A stretch of 64,000 nucleotides of DNA, taken from Octopus vulgaris (Eukaryota). The DNA lies in assembly GCA_951406725.2 (NCBI GenBank), contig OX597838.1, positions 2,852,001 through 2,916,000 on the forward strand, read 5' to 3'. A program made the position numbers. Positions 26,871 through 39,428 of this stretch are shown here, one piece after another. Every line of letters begins with the position of its first letter. Positions within the stretch are counted from its first letter, which is position 1.

Positions 26871-28217
26871 TATATAGATAAATTGTAAGAAGCAAAGAGA
26901 GAAGAAAGGCGAAAGGTGCATGCTGTAAAGACTGCGTGTTTCGGACTTACCTGAGCATATTTTGACGATGTCGGGTCGTTAAGAAAACTCCATATTTTTG
27001 CCCTGTACCGTGTCCAGCAGGAGAGACGTCTTTCATTCATCAGACCGTTTTGGGGTAATGACGTCTTCCGGAAAGACTCTAGCTTCTCCAGAGACTTACT
27101 TTGGGTATTCCAAGTATTATATTGGGTCCAACAGCAGCGTTCAATATCGTGTTCTTCAATTCCCCAGAATTCAAACTCTGTCTTAATGGACGGTCCACAC
27201 ATACACATTGGTACATGCAGTTCGCCCGTTCTCAAGTAATTCAAGATGATCCGGAAGGCCTCAGAATCGCGATCAAAGAAATATTCGCGTCGTTCTGGTC
27301 TATAGTATTTTTCCATTTCTTCGGTGTTGGCCAGTTTCATGGTTGGCAATCGGAAAAGGGTGGCACGACGCGTCTCGAAGATCTTTCCACCAACGTTTAA
27401 TACCACGGTGTCATCGTAAATGTGTGAGCCATGGCGATGTTGTGAGTGGCTCCCCGGTGTTGTGGGAGTGACGCTGTAGTAAGGTTGTCGGTGCAGCAAC
27501 GAGTTAGTGGCTGCTGCGGCGGCGTGTGCAGCTGCGGCAGCGGCGGTGGCGGCAACCGTCGAATTGATGCCGGTGTTGGTGGCACGGTAACCGCCCAGAC
27601 CGAGGCGCGAACCGCCACTGCGACGTCGATGATCCTGTGTCACAACGCCGCCACTTGTCACGAAAGGGTTGCCCGTACCACTTCCGTACGTAAACCCGAA
27701 ACCTCCGTCGGTGGCCGGTAGATATTCAGTGGAACCGGTGAGCAGTTCGTCTCGAACCGAACGGAAACTTTCCGTGATATCGCTGTCTGCTTCTGGTGTG
27801 AGCACATTGCAGGAGGCCGGAGTAGGATTTTGGTGTGTGGACAGGCTGTAACAACTTCCATCTGCTAATTCAGACATGTTGGTGATGGTAGAGGCAGCTA
27901 TGCCGCTGTACGACGTGTTTCGCCTCTCATACGATTCGCTGGCCGTAAACCAGGAGATACTGTTTGCCAGATCATATTCGTGGCTCGGTGGTGTCTGCGG
28001 CGAAGAAGACAATAGCGGTTGCTGTTGTTCTCTCTCCTCTTCCATATCATCTTCTTCGTCATCGTCGTAATCAGTTCTCTCCTTTCCTCCTCCTCCTCTT
28101 CCTCTATCTTCGTCTTCTCTCTCCCCTTTATCTTTTCTTTTTTGTCTTCCTTTCTCTTCTCTCTCGTCGCTGCCGCCATCGTTGTTTCTCTTCTCTTTTT
28201 CCCTTTCCACATGAAAC

Positions 28218-28252
<35 letters not shown>

Positions 28253-28340
28253 TTGTTGTTGTTGTTGCTGTTGTTGTTGTTGTTCATGATGCGAGTAGTA
28301 ATGCTGTTGGTTGTGGTGATGAGGATGAGAATGAGGATGC

Positions 28341-28373
<33 letters not shown>

Positions 28374-28639
28374 TTGTTGTTGTTATTATTACTATTAAGA
28401 TGGCGGTAGCTAGGAAATATTATAGGTTGGAGTTGAACAAGTCGATCATTCAGTAAATTATCCGGATTGAATGAGTTTTGAACCTGGGTCGCCTCTGACG
28501 ATTTCGGATGAGGCTGAGGCTGTTGTTGTTGTTGTTGTTGTTGCTGTTGTTGCTGTTGCTGTTGCGTTTGTTGATGGTGAGTACCAGAAAGTGGATTACT
28601 GGTAAAGTTAATGTTTTGCGTTTGTTTTGATAGCTGCGG

Positions 28640-28709
<70 letters not shown>

Positions 28710-30149
28710 GTTTGTGGTTGTGATTGTTGTTGTTGTTGTTGCCTGTTGAGGTGGTTGTTGCTGCTATGCTTGCTGTGTGTCTGAGAACGAAGATGCGAGG
28801 GACTCTGTACAAAGCTAAAGTTAGAAATTTGGTAAGGATGTTGCCGACAAGGTGAAAACGATGAAGATGAGGATGATGATGACACTAATGAAATGGATGC
28901 TGATGAAGGTGATAACGTTGCTGACGTTGTCGCTGTGGCGTCTCTTATTGCTGCGGTCGATGTGGTGGTCGTTGTCGTTGTGATCGTCTCTGTCGGGGTC
29001 ACTGTCGATGCTATTGAGGAGATCGTTATGGCCGCTGCCGTTGCTGCAGCGATGGTTGCCGTCGCCGACCTGAGCTGCAAGTGTTGTTGTGGTTGGTGTT
29101 GCTGTGGCGGGGGTAGTGGCGGTGGTGGGGGTTGTCGGGATGGGGCTGTCTGTTGTGCTTGCTGTTGTTGTTGTTGTTGTTGTTGTTGTTGGCTTGGCGA
29201 ATGAGGATAGCTGTAACCAAGCTGATGTTGGTTCTGGTAGTTTTGTTGTTGTTGTTGTTGTAGTTGTTGTAGCTGTTTTTGTTGCTCTTTTTGTTGGGTG
29301 TAATTTGAGGTTTGTTGTTGTTGTTTTTGTTGTTGTTGTTGTTGCTGCTGCTGTGATGGGGATTGTTTAGGTGGTTGTTGTTGAGGTTGTTTTTGCGGTT
29401 GTGGCTGAGGTTGTGTTTGTAAGAGTTGCAATTGAAATTGTTGTTTTTGTTGCTGCAGTTGTTGTTGTCTTGACGGTGCCGGTGGTTGTTGTTGTTGCTG
29501 TTGTTGTTGTTGTGATAATGCATTTGGTTGTGTTTGTGATTGTGGTGGTTGTGGTGGTGGTGGTGTTGATGCTGCTGCTGCTGCTGCTGTTGCCGCCGGC
29601 GACGTTTCCGTCAACTGAGGGTTCTGGACCCGTTGACGTTGCGCCTCAAACTGAGCATGAAAGCTGCTCGGCTGCAATTGCAAGCGCAGCTGCTGCTGTT
29701 GTTTTTTCTGCTGCTGTCGCTGCAGTTGTTGGTGTGATTGCTGCTGATGATGGCGATGGTTGTGGTTGTAGTAGTGGTGGTGATGGTACACCTTTCGCGA
29801 AGGTGGTTTCAGCTGCGGGACCAGCCGTCTCAGTTCTAACGCCGGTGACTGCACCGGATTGTGGGCACCGGACGATGAAACGGCCGGTGTCTGCGAGGAC
29901 ATCTGAGTGGTGGTGGTCACCTGGTTAGCGCACCTGCTACCGTTGTTGTTGGCGGCAGTGGCGTTAGACTTGGTCACACTTGTACCCAGAACGTTCCTGG
30001 CAGCGTTGTGAGACGGTGAAATGGCGTCGTTGTGAGGGCTGCTAGCGCTGCTGCTTGTGCTTGTGTTACTACTACTGCTGCTGTTATTCTTAATCGCAGA
30101 AGCAGTTGTGAGATTGTTGGATCGTCTGTCAATGTTTTTCAGCTGCAGC

Positions 30150-30180
<31 letters not shown>

Positions 30181-30389
30181 GCTGTTGTTGTTGTTGTTGT
30201 TGCTGTTGCTGCTGCTGTTGTTGTTGCTGTTGTGGTGGTTGCGGTTGTTGTTGCTGTTGTTGTGGTGGTGTACGACGATGCTGGTTGTTAAGTAAGTCAA
30301 GGTGTTGGCGTTGTTGCTGTAGTTGTTGTTGGGATTGCGATTTTAATTGGATCGGCGTCGTTTGGGTCTGACTTAAAGGTGGCCTTTGC

Positions 30390-36735: not shown

Positions 36736-36802
<67 letters not shown>

Positions 36803-37400
36803 GGTGGTGGTAGTGGTAGTTGTACCAAAAGTCCTTACACGGACTTGAGAGCGTAATGAGCGAATCGCTTTCTTCTTCTTGTCATGGCGTCGAATTTTCT
36901 TGGTTTTCGCGGTTGCGTTGGGGTGACGGTGGGGATGCTATTGGTGTCGCTGTCGTCGGTGGTGGTGGAGGTCCAGGCGGCGGAGATGGTGGTGGCGGTG
37001 TTAAGCTGATAAAACTGGCTGACATTACAGAAAAGAAAACGGAGACAAATTGTTGCGTTTCTAAGTAGTAGTAGTAGTAGTAGTAGTAGTTGTTGTTGTA
37101 GTAGTAGTAGTAGCTGTTACTAACAGTATTAAGCGCTGTTATTGTGACTGAGTTCTTAATTTAGGTTTGGTATAAAGAGATAAAGGAACTTAAGTCTTGC
37201 GTTGTTGTTGTTGTAGTTATAGCTGCTATCGTTTTTATTGTTGTTGTTGTTGTTGTTGTTCCCCGCCGATGCCGTTGCACTGTGAGTAACAGTTATTCTA
37301 TTATTTCATCTCTTATTGTCTCCGCTTCTTGCGACTGTATTTATATCATAGCAGCATCAACAGCAACAGTGGCAGCAGCAGCAGCAGCGGTAGCAGCAGT

Positions 37401-37434
<34 letters not shown>

Positions 37435-37865
37435 GCAGTAGTACTACTAGTAGTAGTAGTCAAATGGCGGTACGCTACTGTTTTTGCTAAAAAGAAAGTG
37501 TTTCTAGCAGTTAACAACTTTGTTCTTGTCGTCGTTGCTAATTACATCCTGCTTGTTGTTATCGTTGTTGTTGTTGTTGCGATTGGTTACGCTGGTGTTG
37601 CGAGAACTAGACCTGTTGCGAAGTCACTTTCCATGCAATATTAATTCCTGCTTTTTGCTGTTGTAATTCTTATTATATTCGCAACGCCCGCCGTTTGTAG
37701 TCGTTGTTTTTGTTGCGAACGAAACCAGAGCATTTATGTAATTCTTGCGGAACTGCTGGTGTTTTTGCTGCTGCTGCTGCTGCTGCTGCTGTTGCTGTTG
37801 CTGTGGTTGTTTCAACTACTGCTGCTGCTGCTGAGGGTGAAGATGATGATGATCTTACAGTTTCT

Positions 37866-37906
<41 letters not shown>

Positions 37907-38273
37907 AAGTAGTTGTCAACTTCCGGCGACAGAATATTCAACAGTTTATCGTTCCATTAAATGTTGTTGCTGCTGTTGTTGTTGTCCTCTTCGGTTGCTG
38001 TAGGCGGCGCTAGTGACAGAGGTGAGAGTGGTGGCGTGGTTGTTGCAGCAGTAGTCACTGCGGATATTGTTGTTGTTGTTGTTGTTGTTGCTACTACTCA
38101 CGTTGCTTTTGTTATTGTTGTTGTTATTACAGTTCAATATTGCTAGCATTTGTTGTTGTTGTTATTGCTGCTGTTGTTCTTCCGCTTCCTGGTGCACGAG
38201 GTCTTTCTTTATCTGGTTTTTCAACAGGTACGACCTTCACCCCACAACAGCAGCAGCAGCAGCAGCAGTAGCT

Positions 38274-38341
<68 letters not shown>

Positions 38342-39428
38342 TGTTGTTGTTGTTGTTAGTCGTTAGTTGGACTTTTAGGAATCAGCGAGTACAAACATCA
38401 TGGCGGAAACAGACGATACATTTTCGTTTGTTTAAGTTTCCTGAATGGGGTGGCGCTGCTTATAATATTATTATTGTTGTTGTTGTTGTCGTTATTGTTC
38501 TATATTTTAGCAAACACTACACTGTTATTTATTTATTTATTCATTATTTGATTATACCACTGTTTTGTTTTTTTAATTTTCTTCTTTATTTTTTTTTGTT
38601 AGCGAAAACCTTTGACGCTTATATTGTTGACTTTCTTTCTTTCTTTCAATCTGAATAATGTTGTTGTTATTGTTATTGTCCAGGGGTTTGTTATAATCCT
38701 TTTGTTATGAAAGGAGAGTTGTTTTACGTAATATATTCCGTCCTTCCTCGAATAATTGGTTTTGTTGTTCTTGTGGCAACTACCACCGTTTTTTTACCTT
38801 CCTTTTTCTTTATTTTGTTGTAGGTAGGTTTAACTGGTGATATTGTTGTTGTTGCAGTGGTGGTGGTTGTGGTGGTGGACGTTGAGCGGAGTGGTGAGAT
38901 TGGTAAAGAGCCGACGGTCGTTGCGTGGTTGTTCGGCAGTTGAAACAATATGGCGTCCAAAGTGTAACCGTGCAAAGAGCGGTCGGTGATGCCGGGTCGA
39001 TTAGCTTTTCTGTGCCGGGTCGATAGATTCCTGTTGAAATATGTACAAGAGAAATGTGAATTAGAGCAGAATGGAAACTGTGGTTAAAGTAGGCGTTTGG
39101 TGGGAGGAAAACGAGAAGGGGGGGGGAGACAGGAAGAGAGGGGAACAGAGAGGAGGGATAAGGGAGGGGGAAGATGAGGGGTGGTTAGGTGAGTATATGA
39201 GGAAGAGAGGTGTTAGGAGGGGAATGTGTGAGTGAGTGAGTGTACGTGTGTCTAAGTGTGTGTATGTGTATGATTATGTGAGCGAGTGTATGTGTGTGTC
39301 AATTAGTAAAAAAGTGTGTTTGTTTCTGATTGATTGTGTATGTGTGTTAGAGAGAAAGAGAGAGTGCGTGAGCATGTGTATGAGTGAGTGATTGTGTGTG
39401 TGTGTGTGTGTTTGTGTGTTTGTGTGTG

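What the first reader, a model, noticed from the sequence alone, without database searches (positions are those of the whole stretch)
26951..39030. A ~12-kb triplet-only exon-like block carrying two in-frame giant ORFs ahead of a Kv3-like channel
Seen: between a canonical acceptor (39031) and the Kv donor (26950) there is no SINE, no LINE and no di- or tetranucleotide microsatellite array, although both flanks are saturated with them. Almost all simple repeats in the block are triplets. It holds two huge minus-strand ORFs in the same frame (36664-31264 = 5400 nt), separated by an 804-nt stop-containing spacer. Inference: frame-preserving repeat content over this length points to translation-linked selection. 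The options are a giant exon with an 8-11-kb leader containing a 1,502-codon uORF, a bicistronic message, or a spliced fusion giving a channel with an enormous disordered N-terminus. I know of no Kv3 architecture like any of these.
Basis: partly seen in the sequence, partly recalled or inferred. Interest (0 to 1): 0.85.

Follow-up and report, generated by a model that had tools for sequence, protein, structure and literature searches.

The report
Giant open frames before octopus Kv3
Two very long, repeat-filled reading frames lie upstream of the first exon of an octopus Shaw/Kv3-type potassium channel gene, one running straight into it, and both look kept open by selection, but whether they make one huge protein is still unknown.

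Summary
On the minus strand, ORF1 (31267-26951) runs without a stop into a Kv3/Shaw-type T1 domain and ends at a CAG|GTAAGT donor. ORF2 (ATG 36577 to TAA 32071, 1,502 codons) lies 801 nt upstream in the same frame. Both have 0 in-frame stops, against 31-74 in the other sense frames and 51-70 expected from shuffles. The adjacent 2.3 kb has the same composition and the same triplet repeats but 27-43 stops per frame. So triplet content alone does not explain the ORFs; selection against stops does.

ORF1's polyQ arrays vary at wobble positions (CAA/CAG), so it is probably translated 1,074 codons beyond the annotated Octopus sinensis start. Its first 455 codons hold no ATG, so translation must enter from upstream.

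ORF2 has no homologue in 1.84 billion representatives, no Pfam match, and no residue-level constraint in its repeats.

The proposed acceptor at 39031 is weak, and no convincing ORF2-to-ORF1 intron was found. The single-exon, bicistronic and fusion models remain untested because no RNA data or cephalopod DNA was available. Only the T1 exon of the channel lies in the window.

Verdict: a real, moderately unusual variant of a known gene type.

The parts
27134..27406 (-). T1 tetramerisation domain (BTB_2) of a Shaw/Kv3-type channel subunit, carrying the H-x5-C-x20-CC zinc motif
   Evidence: Pfam PF02214, E 4.8e-24, residues 1288-1378 of P0001. Kv3.1 7phh E 6.2e-28 and Aplysia Shaw 3kvt E 2.9e-26. 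The motif was read from the translation; its definition is recalled.
26951..27133 (-). T1-to-S1 linker, ending at the exon boundary just before S1
   Evidence: A second stretch aligns to Kv3.1 residues 164-189. The exon ends ...SSKYAQ| before GTAAGT.
26949..26950 (-). Splice donor GT (CAG|GTAAGT), phase 0
   Evidence: top-scoring donor in 26-41 kb. It is used by NCBI model P0008, which continues into a mini-exon at 24400-24420.
26951..28045 (-). Annotated part of the coding exon (residues 1-365 of the 371-aa Octopus sinensis protein), start ATG 28045 in context GAT ATG G
   Evidence: P0008 is 100% identical. Kozak context.
28046..29902 (-). ORF1 part a: 619 further open codons back to in-frame ATG 29902, rich in Q, S, P, N and H
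   Evidence: Stops 0/11/21 by frame; shuffle mean 17.7, minimum 7 of 300. Masked counts 0/11/18.
29903..31267 (-). ORF1 part b: 455 open codons with no in-frame ATG, including a (CAA/CAG) polyQ array at 30150-30523
   Evidence: Stops 0/9/29; shuffle mean 16.8. Array variants by codon position 2/13/24, with CAA 72 and CAG 20 in the large array.
31268..32068 (-). Spacer of 801 nt. It is AT-richer and has stops in all frames. It holds a 26-nt x7.2 minisatellite (31526-31710), a 50-nt x2.3 repeat (31754-31869) and AATAAA at 31469. It is either an intron or intergenic DNA.
   Evidence: No terminal inverted repeats or target-site duplication.
32069..36577 (-). ORF2: ATG 36577 (context GGT ATG G) through 1,502 sense codons to TAA 32071-32069. 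Low-complexity, rich in T, L, K, H, Q and P. An orphan.
   Evidence: No Pfam family.
34790..35758 (-). Non-repetitive lysine-rich core of ORF2 (323 aa)
   Evidence: The three 300-nt windows 35728-34829 within this core: 0 in-frame stops against 19 and 24 in the other frames. 0 hits at E <= 0.001 in 1.84 billion representatives. No Atlas hit. AlphaFold2 without an alignment gave pLDDT 56.6, pTM 0.18.
36686..39030 (-). Upstream stretch that is triplet-repeat-rich and A+C-rich but NOT open. It serves as an internal non-coding control.
   Evidence: 6 of 6 arrays have period 3n. Stops 43/27/31. Its (CAA)n arrays carry TAA and TAG variants.
39031..39032 (-).
   Evidence: Score 2.48, rank 22 in 26-41 kb, on a recalled consensus matrix.

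Best explanation
The block holds the first coding exon of an octopus Shaw/Kv3-type channel gene. Its reading frame has been extended far upstream by expansion of triplet repeats and is kept open by selection.

Shown:
- ORF1 runs continuously into the T1 domain and ends at a conserved donor just before S1.
- ORF1 and ORF2 are both free of in-frame stops to a degree that neither composition nor repeat structure explains.
- ORF1's glutamine arrays vary at synonymous positions.

Inferred:
- ORF1 is translated as a glutamine-rich disordered cytoplasmic N-terminus. That is at least 830 residues before T1 if ATG 29902 is used, and up to 1,285 if the whole frame is used. The annotation gives 211.
- The first 455 codons of ORF1 are open but hold no ATG, so translation must enter from an upstream ATG-bearing exon.
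- ORF2 is the obvious candidate for that exon. It is adjacent, on the same strand, and begins with a well-placed ATG. It shows selection only against stops, not on residue identity. That pattern is expected of filler sequence that must be read through to reach an essential downstream domain.
- On this reading the roughly 0.8-1.3-kb AT-rich spacer is an intron, and the subunit carries a low-complexity N-terminus of up to about 2,600-2,800 residues.

The splice itself is not shown.
For: - T1 identity and exon end.
- Stops in frame versus other frames versus shuffles: ORF1 0/31/67 (shuffle mean 51.1), ORF2 0/74/49 (shuffle mean 69.7). Every 300-nt window is open in frame. The result holds with arrays masked.
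- Internal control 36686-39030: same base composition, 6 of 6 triplet arrays, yet 27-43 stops per frame.
- Wobble signature in ORF1's period-3 arrays: variants at codon positions 1/2/3 are 9/23/40, with 37 synonymous against 35 non-synonymous. The shifted frames give 9/86 and 28/65.
- Part b alone gives 2/13/24, p = 9e-5.
- 188 CAA codons in ORF1's arrays include no TAA. The (CAA)n arrays of the control stretch (18 CAA) include 3 TAA and 1 TAG.
- The longest Q run is 46 in frame, against runs of 23-24 in the other frames.
- Parts a and b are each open: 0/11/21 and 0/9/29.
- ORF2's single in-frame ATG is codon 37 of 1,538, so the open frame coincides with ATG-to-stop. By my arithmetic this placement has a 2.4% chance. 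Its context has G at -3 and G at +4.
- ORF2 has 669 one-step paths to a stop. One stop is expected after 0.45% neutral divergence, while its arrays are only 61-97% matched.
- ORF2's arrays show no position bias (26/27/30), so only the frame is constrained.
Against: - No convincing in-frame donor/acceptor pair joins ORF2 to ORF1. The best combined score is 8.9, and pairs near the ORF ends score lower, while the Kv donor alone scores 12.9. That matrix is a recalled, vertebrate-like consensus.
- The best-looking acceptor in the spacer (31292) is followed by stops in all three frames, by my reading of the sequence.
- ORF2 ends in TAA, and AATAAA lies about 600 nt downstream at 31469. That is what a separate gene would look like.
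- The only cephalopod protein found is the 371-aa NCBI model, which starts at ATG 28045. No cephalopod protein of 832-2,648 aa or 841-2,400 aa carries this T1.
- ORF2 is 18% leucine overall and holds 63-66 Leu (42-44%) in two 150-residue blocks and 50 (33%) in a third. That is odd for a soluble cytoplasmic tail.
- In the stretch 33699-34604 a second frame is also open.
- A profile of 16 mollusc pre-T1 regions aligns significantly only at the T1 start, so the extension has no detectable conservation outside octopus.
- The S1-S6 exons are not in the window.
Confidence: 0.4

Rival explanations
1. There are two tandem genes. ORF2 is an independent, lineage-specific, single-exon orphan gene encoding a basic low-complexity protein, and it ends in the spacer. 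The Kv3 gene starts downstream. It is translated from ATG 29902 or 28045, or from a small unseen 5' exon or a non-AUG codon.
For: - ORF2 is a complete ATG-to-TAA frame with a strong start context, and AATAAA lies at 31469.
- The spacer looks intergenic or non-coding.
- No good ORF2-to-ORF1 splice pair was found.
- NCBI annotates only a 371-aa product starting at 28045.
- ORF2's core has a lysine run resembling a nuclear localisation signal (the resemblance is recalled).
Against: - It does not explain why 455 codons of ORF1 upstream of its first ATG stay open and carry wobble-biased polyQ.
- An orphan gene whose repeats show no residue-level constraint (26/27/30) should not stay open once neutral divergence passes about 1.3%.
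- No annotated protein anywhere matches ORF2's core.
Confidence: 0.3
2. One roughly 8-12-kb exon runs from an acceptor near 39 kb to the donor at 26950. ORF2 acts as a 1,502-codon uORF or first cistron, and the channel is translated by reinitiation or internal entry.
For: - Repeat style, strand skew and absence of dispersed repeats are continuous across the whole block.
- Sense-strand ATG is depleted about 4-fold from 36.6 to 29.9 kb: 14 seen against 53 expected. It is not depleted in the annotated CDS: 17 seen against 17.5 expected. That is what a scanned leader would show.
Against: - The acceptor at 39031 is weak.
- A stop at 32071, far upstream of the exon junction at 26950, would normally mark an mRNA for nonsense-mediated decay (established knowledge, not tested here).
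- Nothing in this model selects for a uORF to stay open over 1,502 codons, or for ORF1 part b to stay open.
- The ATG depletion can also follow from the amino-acid make-up, which has few codons starting with G and few Cys or Trp codons.
Confidence: 0.1
3. There is no current coding function upstream of 28045. The open frames are relics or by-products of triplet-repeat expansion on a T-poor strand.
For: - The sense strand is T-poor: 15% T in ORF1 and 22% in ORF2.
- Many ORF2 arrays sit in phases whose codons (CTA, ACT, ACA, CAT, GCA, AAC) cannot reach a stop in one step.
- ORF2 has no homologue and no confident fold.
- The non-open stretch 36686-39030 shows that such repeat DNA also exists without an ORF.
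Against: - There are 0 stops in 2,977 codons, while the same DNA has 31-74 in each other frame. The result holds after masking arrays and in the non-repetitive K-rich core.
- The control stretch with the same composition has 27-43 stops per frame.
- Expected neutral survival without a stop is only about 0.5-1.3% divergence for ORF2.
- ORF1 shows wobble bias.
Confidence: 0.12

Closest known systems
Kv3 / Shaw-type voltage-gated K+ channel subunits (human Kv3.1, PDB 7phh; Aplysia Shaw T1, PDB 3kvt)
   Same: - The T1 domain carries the H-x5-C-x20-CC zinc motif.
- The pre-S1 segment ...W.R...IW.F..DP.SS.YA aligns to Kv3.1 residues 164-189.
- The exon ends just before S1.
   Different: - In Kv3.1 the T1 starts about 8 residues from the N-terminus of the solved chain.
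- Here 211 (annotated), 830 (ATG 29902) or 1,285 (whole open frame) codons precede it.
- The transmembrane exons are not in the window.
Mollusc Shaw-like / egl-36-like proteins (for example Haliotis P0010, Biomphalaria P0016, Gigantopelta P0031)
   Same: They are 54-61% identical over the T1 exon. They already have longer pre-T1 tails than vertebrate or insect Kv3.
   Different: - Across all 30 other hits, pre-T1 length is 412 residues or less in 29, including every channel-type relative.
- The one exception is a weak BTB-only hit, P0007 (30% identity), with 992.
- None carries a polyQ-rich extension of about 1,000 residues or more.
- A profile of 16 of their pre-T1 regions finds nothing significant upstream of T1 in ORF1 or in ORF2.
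Coding CAA/CAG polyglutamine and other homopolymer tracts made by replication slippage
   Same: In ORF1, mixed CAA/CAG runs are purer at the amino-acid level than at the DNA level, and arrays come in multiples of 3. The general concept was seen only in search listings and abstracts (PMC1896166, PMC3523016).
   Different: The scale is different: about 28% Gln over 1,074 codons in ORF1. ORF2 is a 1,502-codon patchwork of T, L, K, H and Q blocks with no residue-level constraint.
Upstream ORFs in long 5' leaders, and bicistronic mRNAs
   Same: An ATG-initiated ORF lies upstream of a main ORF on the same strand, and sense-strand ATGs are depleted.
   Different: uORFs are typically tens of codons long (recalled), not 1,502. 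Whether both ORFs lie on one mRNA was not testable.

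Membership tests
Kv3 / Shaw voltage-gated K+ channel | N-terminal T1 (BTB_2) tetramerisation domain | tested here: met
   PF02214, E 4.8e-24, 85 bits against a cut-off of 21.4, full-length match 1-94 of 94.
Kv3 / Shaw voltage-gated K+ channel | Inter-subunit zinc site H-x5-C-x20-CC, found in the non-Shaker T1 domains (Kv2, Kv3, Kv4). 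The definition is recalled. | tested here: met
   HVPMCMC-GPSIKTEFEFWGIEEHDIER-CC, read from the translation. It aligns with the HCPADVC...CC of Kv3.1.
Kv3 / Shaw voltage-gated K+ channel | Closer to Kv3 than to Kv1, Kv2 or Kv4 | tested here: met
   - Solved structures: Kv3.1 6.2e-28, Shaw T1 2.9e-26, Kv4.3 1.7e-22, Kv2.1 4.7e-19, Kv1.1 1.9e-12.
- The margin is modest and no tree was built.
- The best named relatives are 'Shaw-like' or 'egl-36-like'.
- NCBI's own name for the octopus protein is 'Shab-like'.
Kv3 / Shaw voltage-gated K+ channel | Six transmembrane segments with voltage sensor and K+ pore (PF00520, PF07885) | tested here: inconclusive
   - tblastn of 6 mollusc Shaw-like proteins against the window: all 6 hit only 26891-27445.
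- The remaining exons, if they exist, lie beyond the 26.9 kb of intron in the window.
- The only annotated octopus product is T1-only.
- No cephalopod genomic DNA could be fetched.
Translated low-complexity (homopolymer) coding sequence | Open frame beyond chance, plus repeat variation concentrated at synonymous positions of that frame | tested here: met
   For ORF1: 0 stops against 31/67. Array variants by position 9/23/40, synonymous 37 against 35. Shifted frames give 9/86 and 28/65.
Translated low-complexity (homopolymer) coding sequence | The same test applied to ORF2 | tested here: inconclusive
   The open-frame criterion is met (0 against 74/49; 0/65/39 masked). The synonymous-bias criterion is not met (26/27/30; synonymous 27 against 56, like the shifted frames).
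uORF or bicistronic leader of the Kv3 mRNA | ORF2 and the channel ORF lie on one mature mRNA | not testable with these tools
   No transcript data were available. The proposed acceptor at 39031 is weak.
Transposable element (SINE, LINE or DNA transposon) as the origin of ORF2 or the spacer | Dispersed copies, reverse transcriptase or transposase domain, terminal repeats or target-site duplication | tested here: not met
   - No dispersed self-match beyond triplet low-complexity (429 of 12,080 bases).
- No Pfam family in ORF2 or in 8 other block ORFs.
- No terminal inverted repeat or target-site duplication around the spacer.
- No Rfam family.
- No repeat library was available.

The most novel reading that the evidence does not exclude
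ORF2 and ORF1 are two giant coding exons of one message. The octopus Kv3-type subunit would then carry a low-complexity, largely unconstrained N-terminus of about 2,600-2,800 residues ahead of T1. That would be several times the size of the channel proper and larger than any Kv N-terminus found in the searches here. It would be held open only because the channel domain downstream depends on it. This would be a case of runaway triplet-repeat growth tolerated inside an essential neuronal gene.
Probability: 0.3. Interest if true: 0.6.

Novelty: new variant of a known kind. Interest (0 to 1): 0.45.

Why it matters
If ORF1 is translated, the annotated octopus protein (start at 28045) lacks at least about 620 and possibly more than 1,000 N-terminal residues. 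In that case a Shaw/Kv3 subunit carries a huge glutamine-rich disordered tail just where N-type inactivation balls and trafficking signals normally sit.

If ORF2 is part of the same protein, this would be an extreme example of repeat-driven growth of a coding exon kept only in frame. It would be useful for asking how much unconstrained sequence an ion-channel subunit tolerates.

If ORF2 is instead a separate orphan gene, it is a 1,502-codon lineage-specific ORF under selection with no detectable relatives.

In every case the locus is a caution for gene annotation in repeat-rich cephalopod genomes.

Tried and rejected
1. Chance or composition as the cause of the ORFs. Rejected by the frame comparison, the shuffles, the masked counts and the control stretch.
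2. Homology for ORF2. There was no Pfam match. Its K-rich core gave 0 hits in 1.84 billion representatives. There was no ESM Atlas hit. AlphaFold2 without an alignment gave pLDDT 56.6 and pTM 0.18, too poor for a fold search, so none was run.
3. Looking for annotated long-N-terminus orthologues. Searches (832-2,648 aa; 264-840 aa; 841-2,400 aa) found no cephalopod protein except the 371-aa model. Proteins longer than these ranges were not searched. In some searches only the top 7,999-8,000 candidates by shared words were scored.
The second member of that cluster is therefore unknown.
5. Locating the ancestral start by homology. A profile of 16 mollusc pre-T1 regions aligned significantly only at the T1 start. 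A by-eye resemblance of octopus 'WFTASESYERRNTSYS' to the relatives' N-terminal 'F.S...RR.S.P' motif has no statistical support.
6. An in-frame intron across the spacer. No convincing pair was found with a recalled consensus matrix. The candidates 32332>31087, 32332>30988 and 32113>31234 remain only possible.
7. The spacer as a mobile-element insertion. No terminal inverted repeat, target-site duplication or dispersed copies were found.
8. Plus-strand genes in the block. Every plus frame has 44-234 stops across the ORFs. Five plus-strand and three further minus-strand ORFs have no Pfam family.
9. Rfam over the whole window: no family.
10. Literature. Four searches found nothing on cephalopod Kv3 gene structure or on giant repeat ORFs in octopus. 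Only listings and abstracts were seen and no paper was read.
11. CpG observed/expected across 24-42 kb showed no clear island pattern.
The two ORFs were searched separately.
13. Not available or not used. No orthologous cephalopod DNA could therefore be compared.

Full report
**What is there**

The window contains no N. Its T1 exon is 100% identical to the NCBI protein 'potassium voltage-gated channel protein Shab-like [Octopus sinensis]' (P0008, 371 aa). The locus is therefore from that octopus or a very close relative.

On the minus strand there are two very long stop-to-stop frames: 26726..31267 (1,513 aa) and 32069..36685 (1,538 aa). They are in the same frame (5418 = 3x1806). An 801-nt spacer with 15 in-frame stops separates them.

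**The channel part**

The 3' end of ORF1 encodes a T1/BTB_2 domain (PF02214, E 4.8e-24). Its best solved relatives are:
- human Kv3.1 (6.2e-28) and Aplysia Shaw T1 (2.9e-26);
- then Kv4 (1.7e-22), Kv2 (4.7e-19) and Kv1 (1.9e-12).

It carries the H-x5-C-x20-CC zinc motif. That definition is recalled; the motif was read. A second stretch aligns to the pre-S1 segment of Kv3.1.

The exon ends at CAG|GTAAGT (26951|26950, phase 0). This is the best donor in 26-41 kb on a rough recalled matrix. The NCBI model uses it and then adds six codons from a mini-exon at 24400-24420.

The best named relatives are mollusc 'Shaw-like' or 'egl-36-like' proteins, 54-61% identical over the T1 exon only. tblastn with 6 of them hit only 26891-27445, apart from two chance-level fragments at 17361-17477 (E about 0.35). 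The transmembrane exons are therefore not in the window. 'Kv3-like' is correct for this exon. An intact channel gene is not shown here.

**Checking the repeat observation**

After collapsing 222 TRF rows to 141 arrays, 31 of 34 arrays in 26951-39030 have periods that are multiples of 3. In the flanks the figure is 29 of 107 (Fisher p = 1.9e-11), and at least 4 of those 29 are dinucleotide runs called at period 6 or 12.

The exceptions in the block are the 26-nt and 50-nt minisatellites in the spacer and one weak 10-nt array.

Dispersed self-matches cover 429 of 12,080 block bases, all triplet low-complexity. They cover 7,863 of 51,920 flank bases. No repeat library was available, so the absence of SINEs and LINEs is shown only in this within-window sense.

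The block is also richer in G+C and strongly skewed. The sense strand is A+C-rich and T-poor.

**Are the ORFs more than chance?**

Yes.

| Region | In-frame stops | Other two sense frames | Shuffle mean (minimum) |
|---|---|---|---|
| ORF1 (26951-31267) | 0 | 31 / 67 | 51.1 (33) |
| ORF2 (32069-36685) | 0 | 74 / 49 | 69.7 (48) |

The shuffles were 500 local 60-nt shuffles each.

- Every 300-nt window of both ORFs is open in frame.
- With tandem arrays masked the counts are 0/65/39 (ORF2), 0/11/18 (ORF1, 29902-28046) and 0/7/23 (ORF1, 31267-29903).

The best control is internal. The stretch 36686-39030 has the same base composition and 6 of 6 triplet arrays, yet 27-43 stops in every sense frame. 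Triplet-only repeat content is therefore a regional property and not evidence of translation. The open frames are an additional, separate fact.

ORF2 has 669 single-step paths to a stop. It would be expected to gain one after about 0.45% neutral divergence, and P(no stop) falls to 5% at 1.3%. Its arrays are only 61-97% matched. I infer ongoing selection against stops.

**Protein-level signal**

In ORF1's period-3 arrays, single-difference codons fall at positions 1/2/3 as 9/23/40. Synonymous against non-synonymous is 37 to 35. The shifted frames give 9/86 and 28/65.

The part upstream of ATG 29902 alone gives 2/13/24 (p = 9e-5). Its large array holds CAA 72 and CAG 20.

ORF1's (CAA)n arrays (188 CAA) contain no TAA. 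The small (CAA)n arrays in the control stretch (18 CAA) contain 3 TAA and 1 TAG. The longest Q run is 46 in frame, against runs of 23-24 in the other frames.

ORF1 is therefore most likely translated well beyond the annotated start. Before T1 there are 211 residues by the annotation, 830 from ATG 29902, and 1,285 codons for the whole open frame. Of the 30 other hits, 29, including every channel-type relative, have at most 412. The one exception is a weak BTB-only hit with 992.

ORF2 differs. Its arrays show no position bias (26/27/30; synonymous 27 against 56, like the shifted frames).

**What is ORF2?**

- Its only in-frame ATG is codon 37 of 1,538, in a G(-3)/G(+4) context. The open frame therefore coincides with ATG-to-stop.
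- It is a patchwork of T-, K-, L-, H- and Q/P-rich blocks. It is 18% Leu overall and holds 63-66 Leu (42-44%) in two 150-residue blocks and 50 (33%) in a third.
- Within its non-repetitive K-rich core (34790-35758), the three 300-nt windows 35728-34829 have 0 in-frame stops against 19 and 24 in the other frames.
- That core has no hit at E <= 0.001 among 1.84 billion representatives, and ORF2 has no Pfam family.
- There was no Atlas hit and no confident fold: pLDDT 56.6, pTM 0.18, long helices only.

ORF2 is an orphan.

**The link between the ORFs**

The first 455 codons of ORF1 are open and wobble-biased but hold no ATG. Translation must therefore come in from upstream.

ORF2 is adjacent, on the same strand, ATG-initiated, and constrained only to stay in frame. 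That is what one expects of filler that must be read through to reach an essential domain. This is my main argument for a spliced fusion, and it is inference.

Against the fusion:
- No convincing in-frame donor/acceptor pair was found.
- The best-looking acceptor in the spacer (31292) is followed by stops in all frames, by my reading of the sequence.
- ORF2 ends in TAA with AATAAA about 600 nt downstream.
- The only cephalopod protein found starts at 28045. No cephalopod protein of 832-2,648 aa or 841-2,400 aa carries this T1.

The spacer has no transposon hallmarks.

Sense-strand ATG is depleted about 4-fold from 36.6 to 29.9 kb, with 14 seen against 53 expected. It is not depleted in the annotated CDS, with 17 seen against 17.5 expected. 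This fits a scanned leader, but it can also follow from the amino-acid make-up.

ORF2 and ORF1 were searched separately.

**Verdict**

| Reading | Confidence |
|---|---|
| Kv3-type first exon with a selection-maintained, repeat-driven N-terminal coding extension, with ORF2 probably an upstream coding exon of the same message | 0.4 |
| Two tandem genes | 0.3 |
| One giant exon with a uORF or first cistron | 0.1 |
| Non-functional relic or by-product | 0.12 |

Novelty: a new variant of a known kind. Interest: 0.45.

**What stayed unchecked**

- RNA and protein evidence.
- Orthologous cephalopod DNA.
- Annotated proteins longer than 2,400-2,648 aa.
- Literature beyond four searches that returned nothing relevant. 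Only listings and abstracts were seen.

Noticed in passing
window 24400-24420 (-): The NCBI Octopus sinensis model ends in a six-codon mini-exon (NLCCGS, then a stop) behind a good acceptor (ttttacag|AAT). This gives a T1-only product of 371 aa with no transmembrane part. It could be a truncated regulatory isoform or an annotation artefact.
   Followed up: partly
window 29903-36577 (-): Sense-strand ATG is about 4-fold depleted across ORF2, the spacer and the upstream part of ORF1. Observed against first-order Markov expectation: 8/34.8, 2/9.6 and 4/8.8. It is not depleted in the annotated CDS (17/17.5) and barely in the flanks (117/127.6 and 134/174.7).
   Followed up: partly
window 33699-34604 (-): The leucine-rich part of ORF2 is also open in a second sense frame (301 codons), which reads as a Thr/Ser-rich tract. 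Arrays derived from (ACT)n stay open in two phases because the codons CTA and ACT cannot mutate to a stop in one step.
   Followed up: partly
window 40281-40818: A (CAT)n array of about 179 units lies just upstream of the block. On the minus strand one frame of it is a run of TGA. Stronger acceptor-like sites than 39031 lie nearby at 40012 and 40031.
   Followed up: no
window 13570-14001; 59531-59852: The flanks hold large arrays: (AAT)n of about 145 units, and a 36-nt unit repeated 8.8 times. AAT-family triplets dominate the flank triplet arrays and are absent from the block.
   Followed up: no
window about 9870-10290, 41000-41530, 42070-42360, 52760-53050: A short dispersed repeat family recurs in the flanks on both strands. 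Its translations share ...PRKDEKQS.PRQNLNSE.... It looks SINE-like and has no copy in the block.
   Followed up: no
P0009, P0011, P0014, P0017 (mollusc fragments from unnamed contigs): These predicted proteins run on past the conserved ...SS..AK into 'VS' or similar. This looks like read-through into a GTAAGT-type intron at the same position as the octopus donor. It suggests the exon boundary before S1 is shared among molluscs.
   Followed up: no
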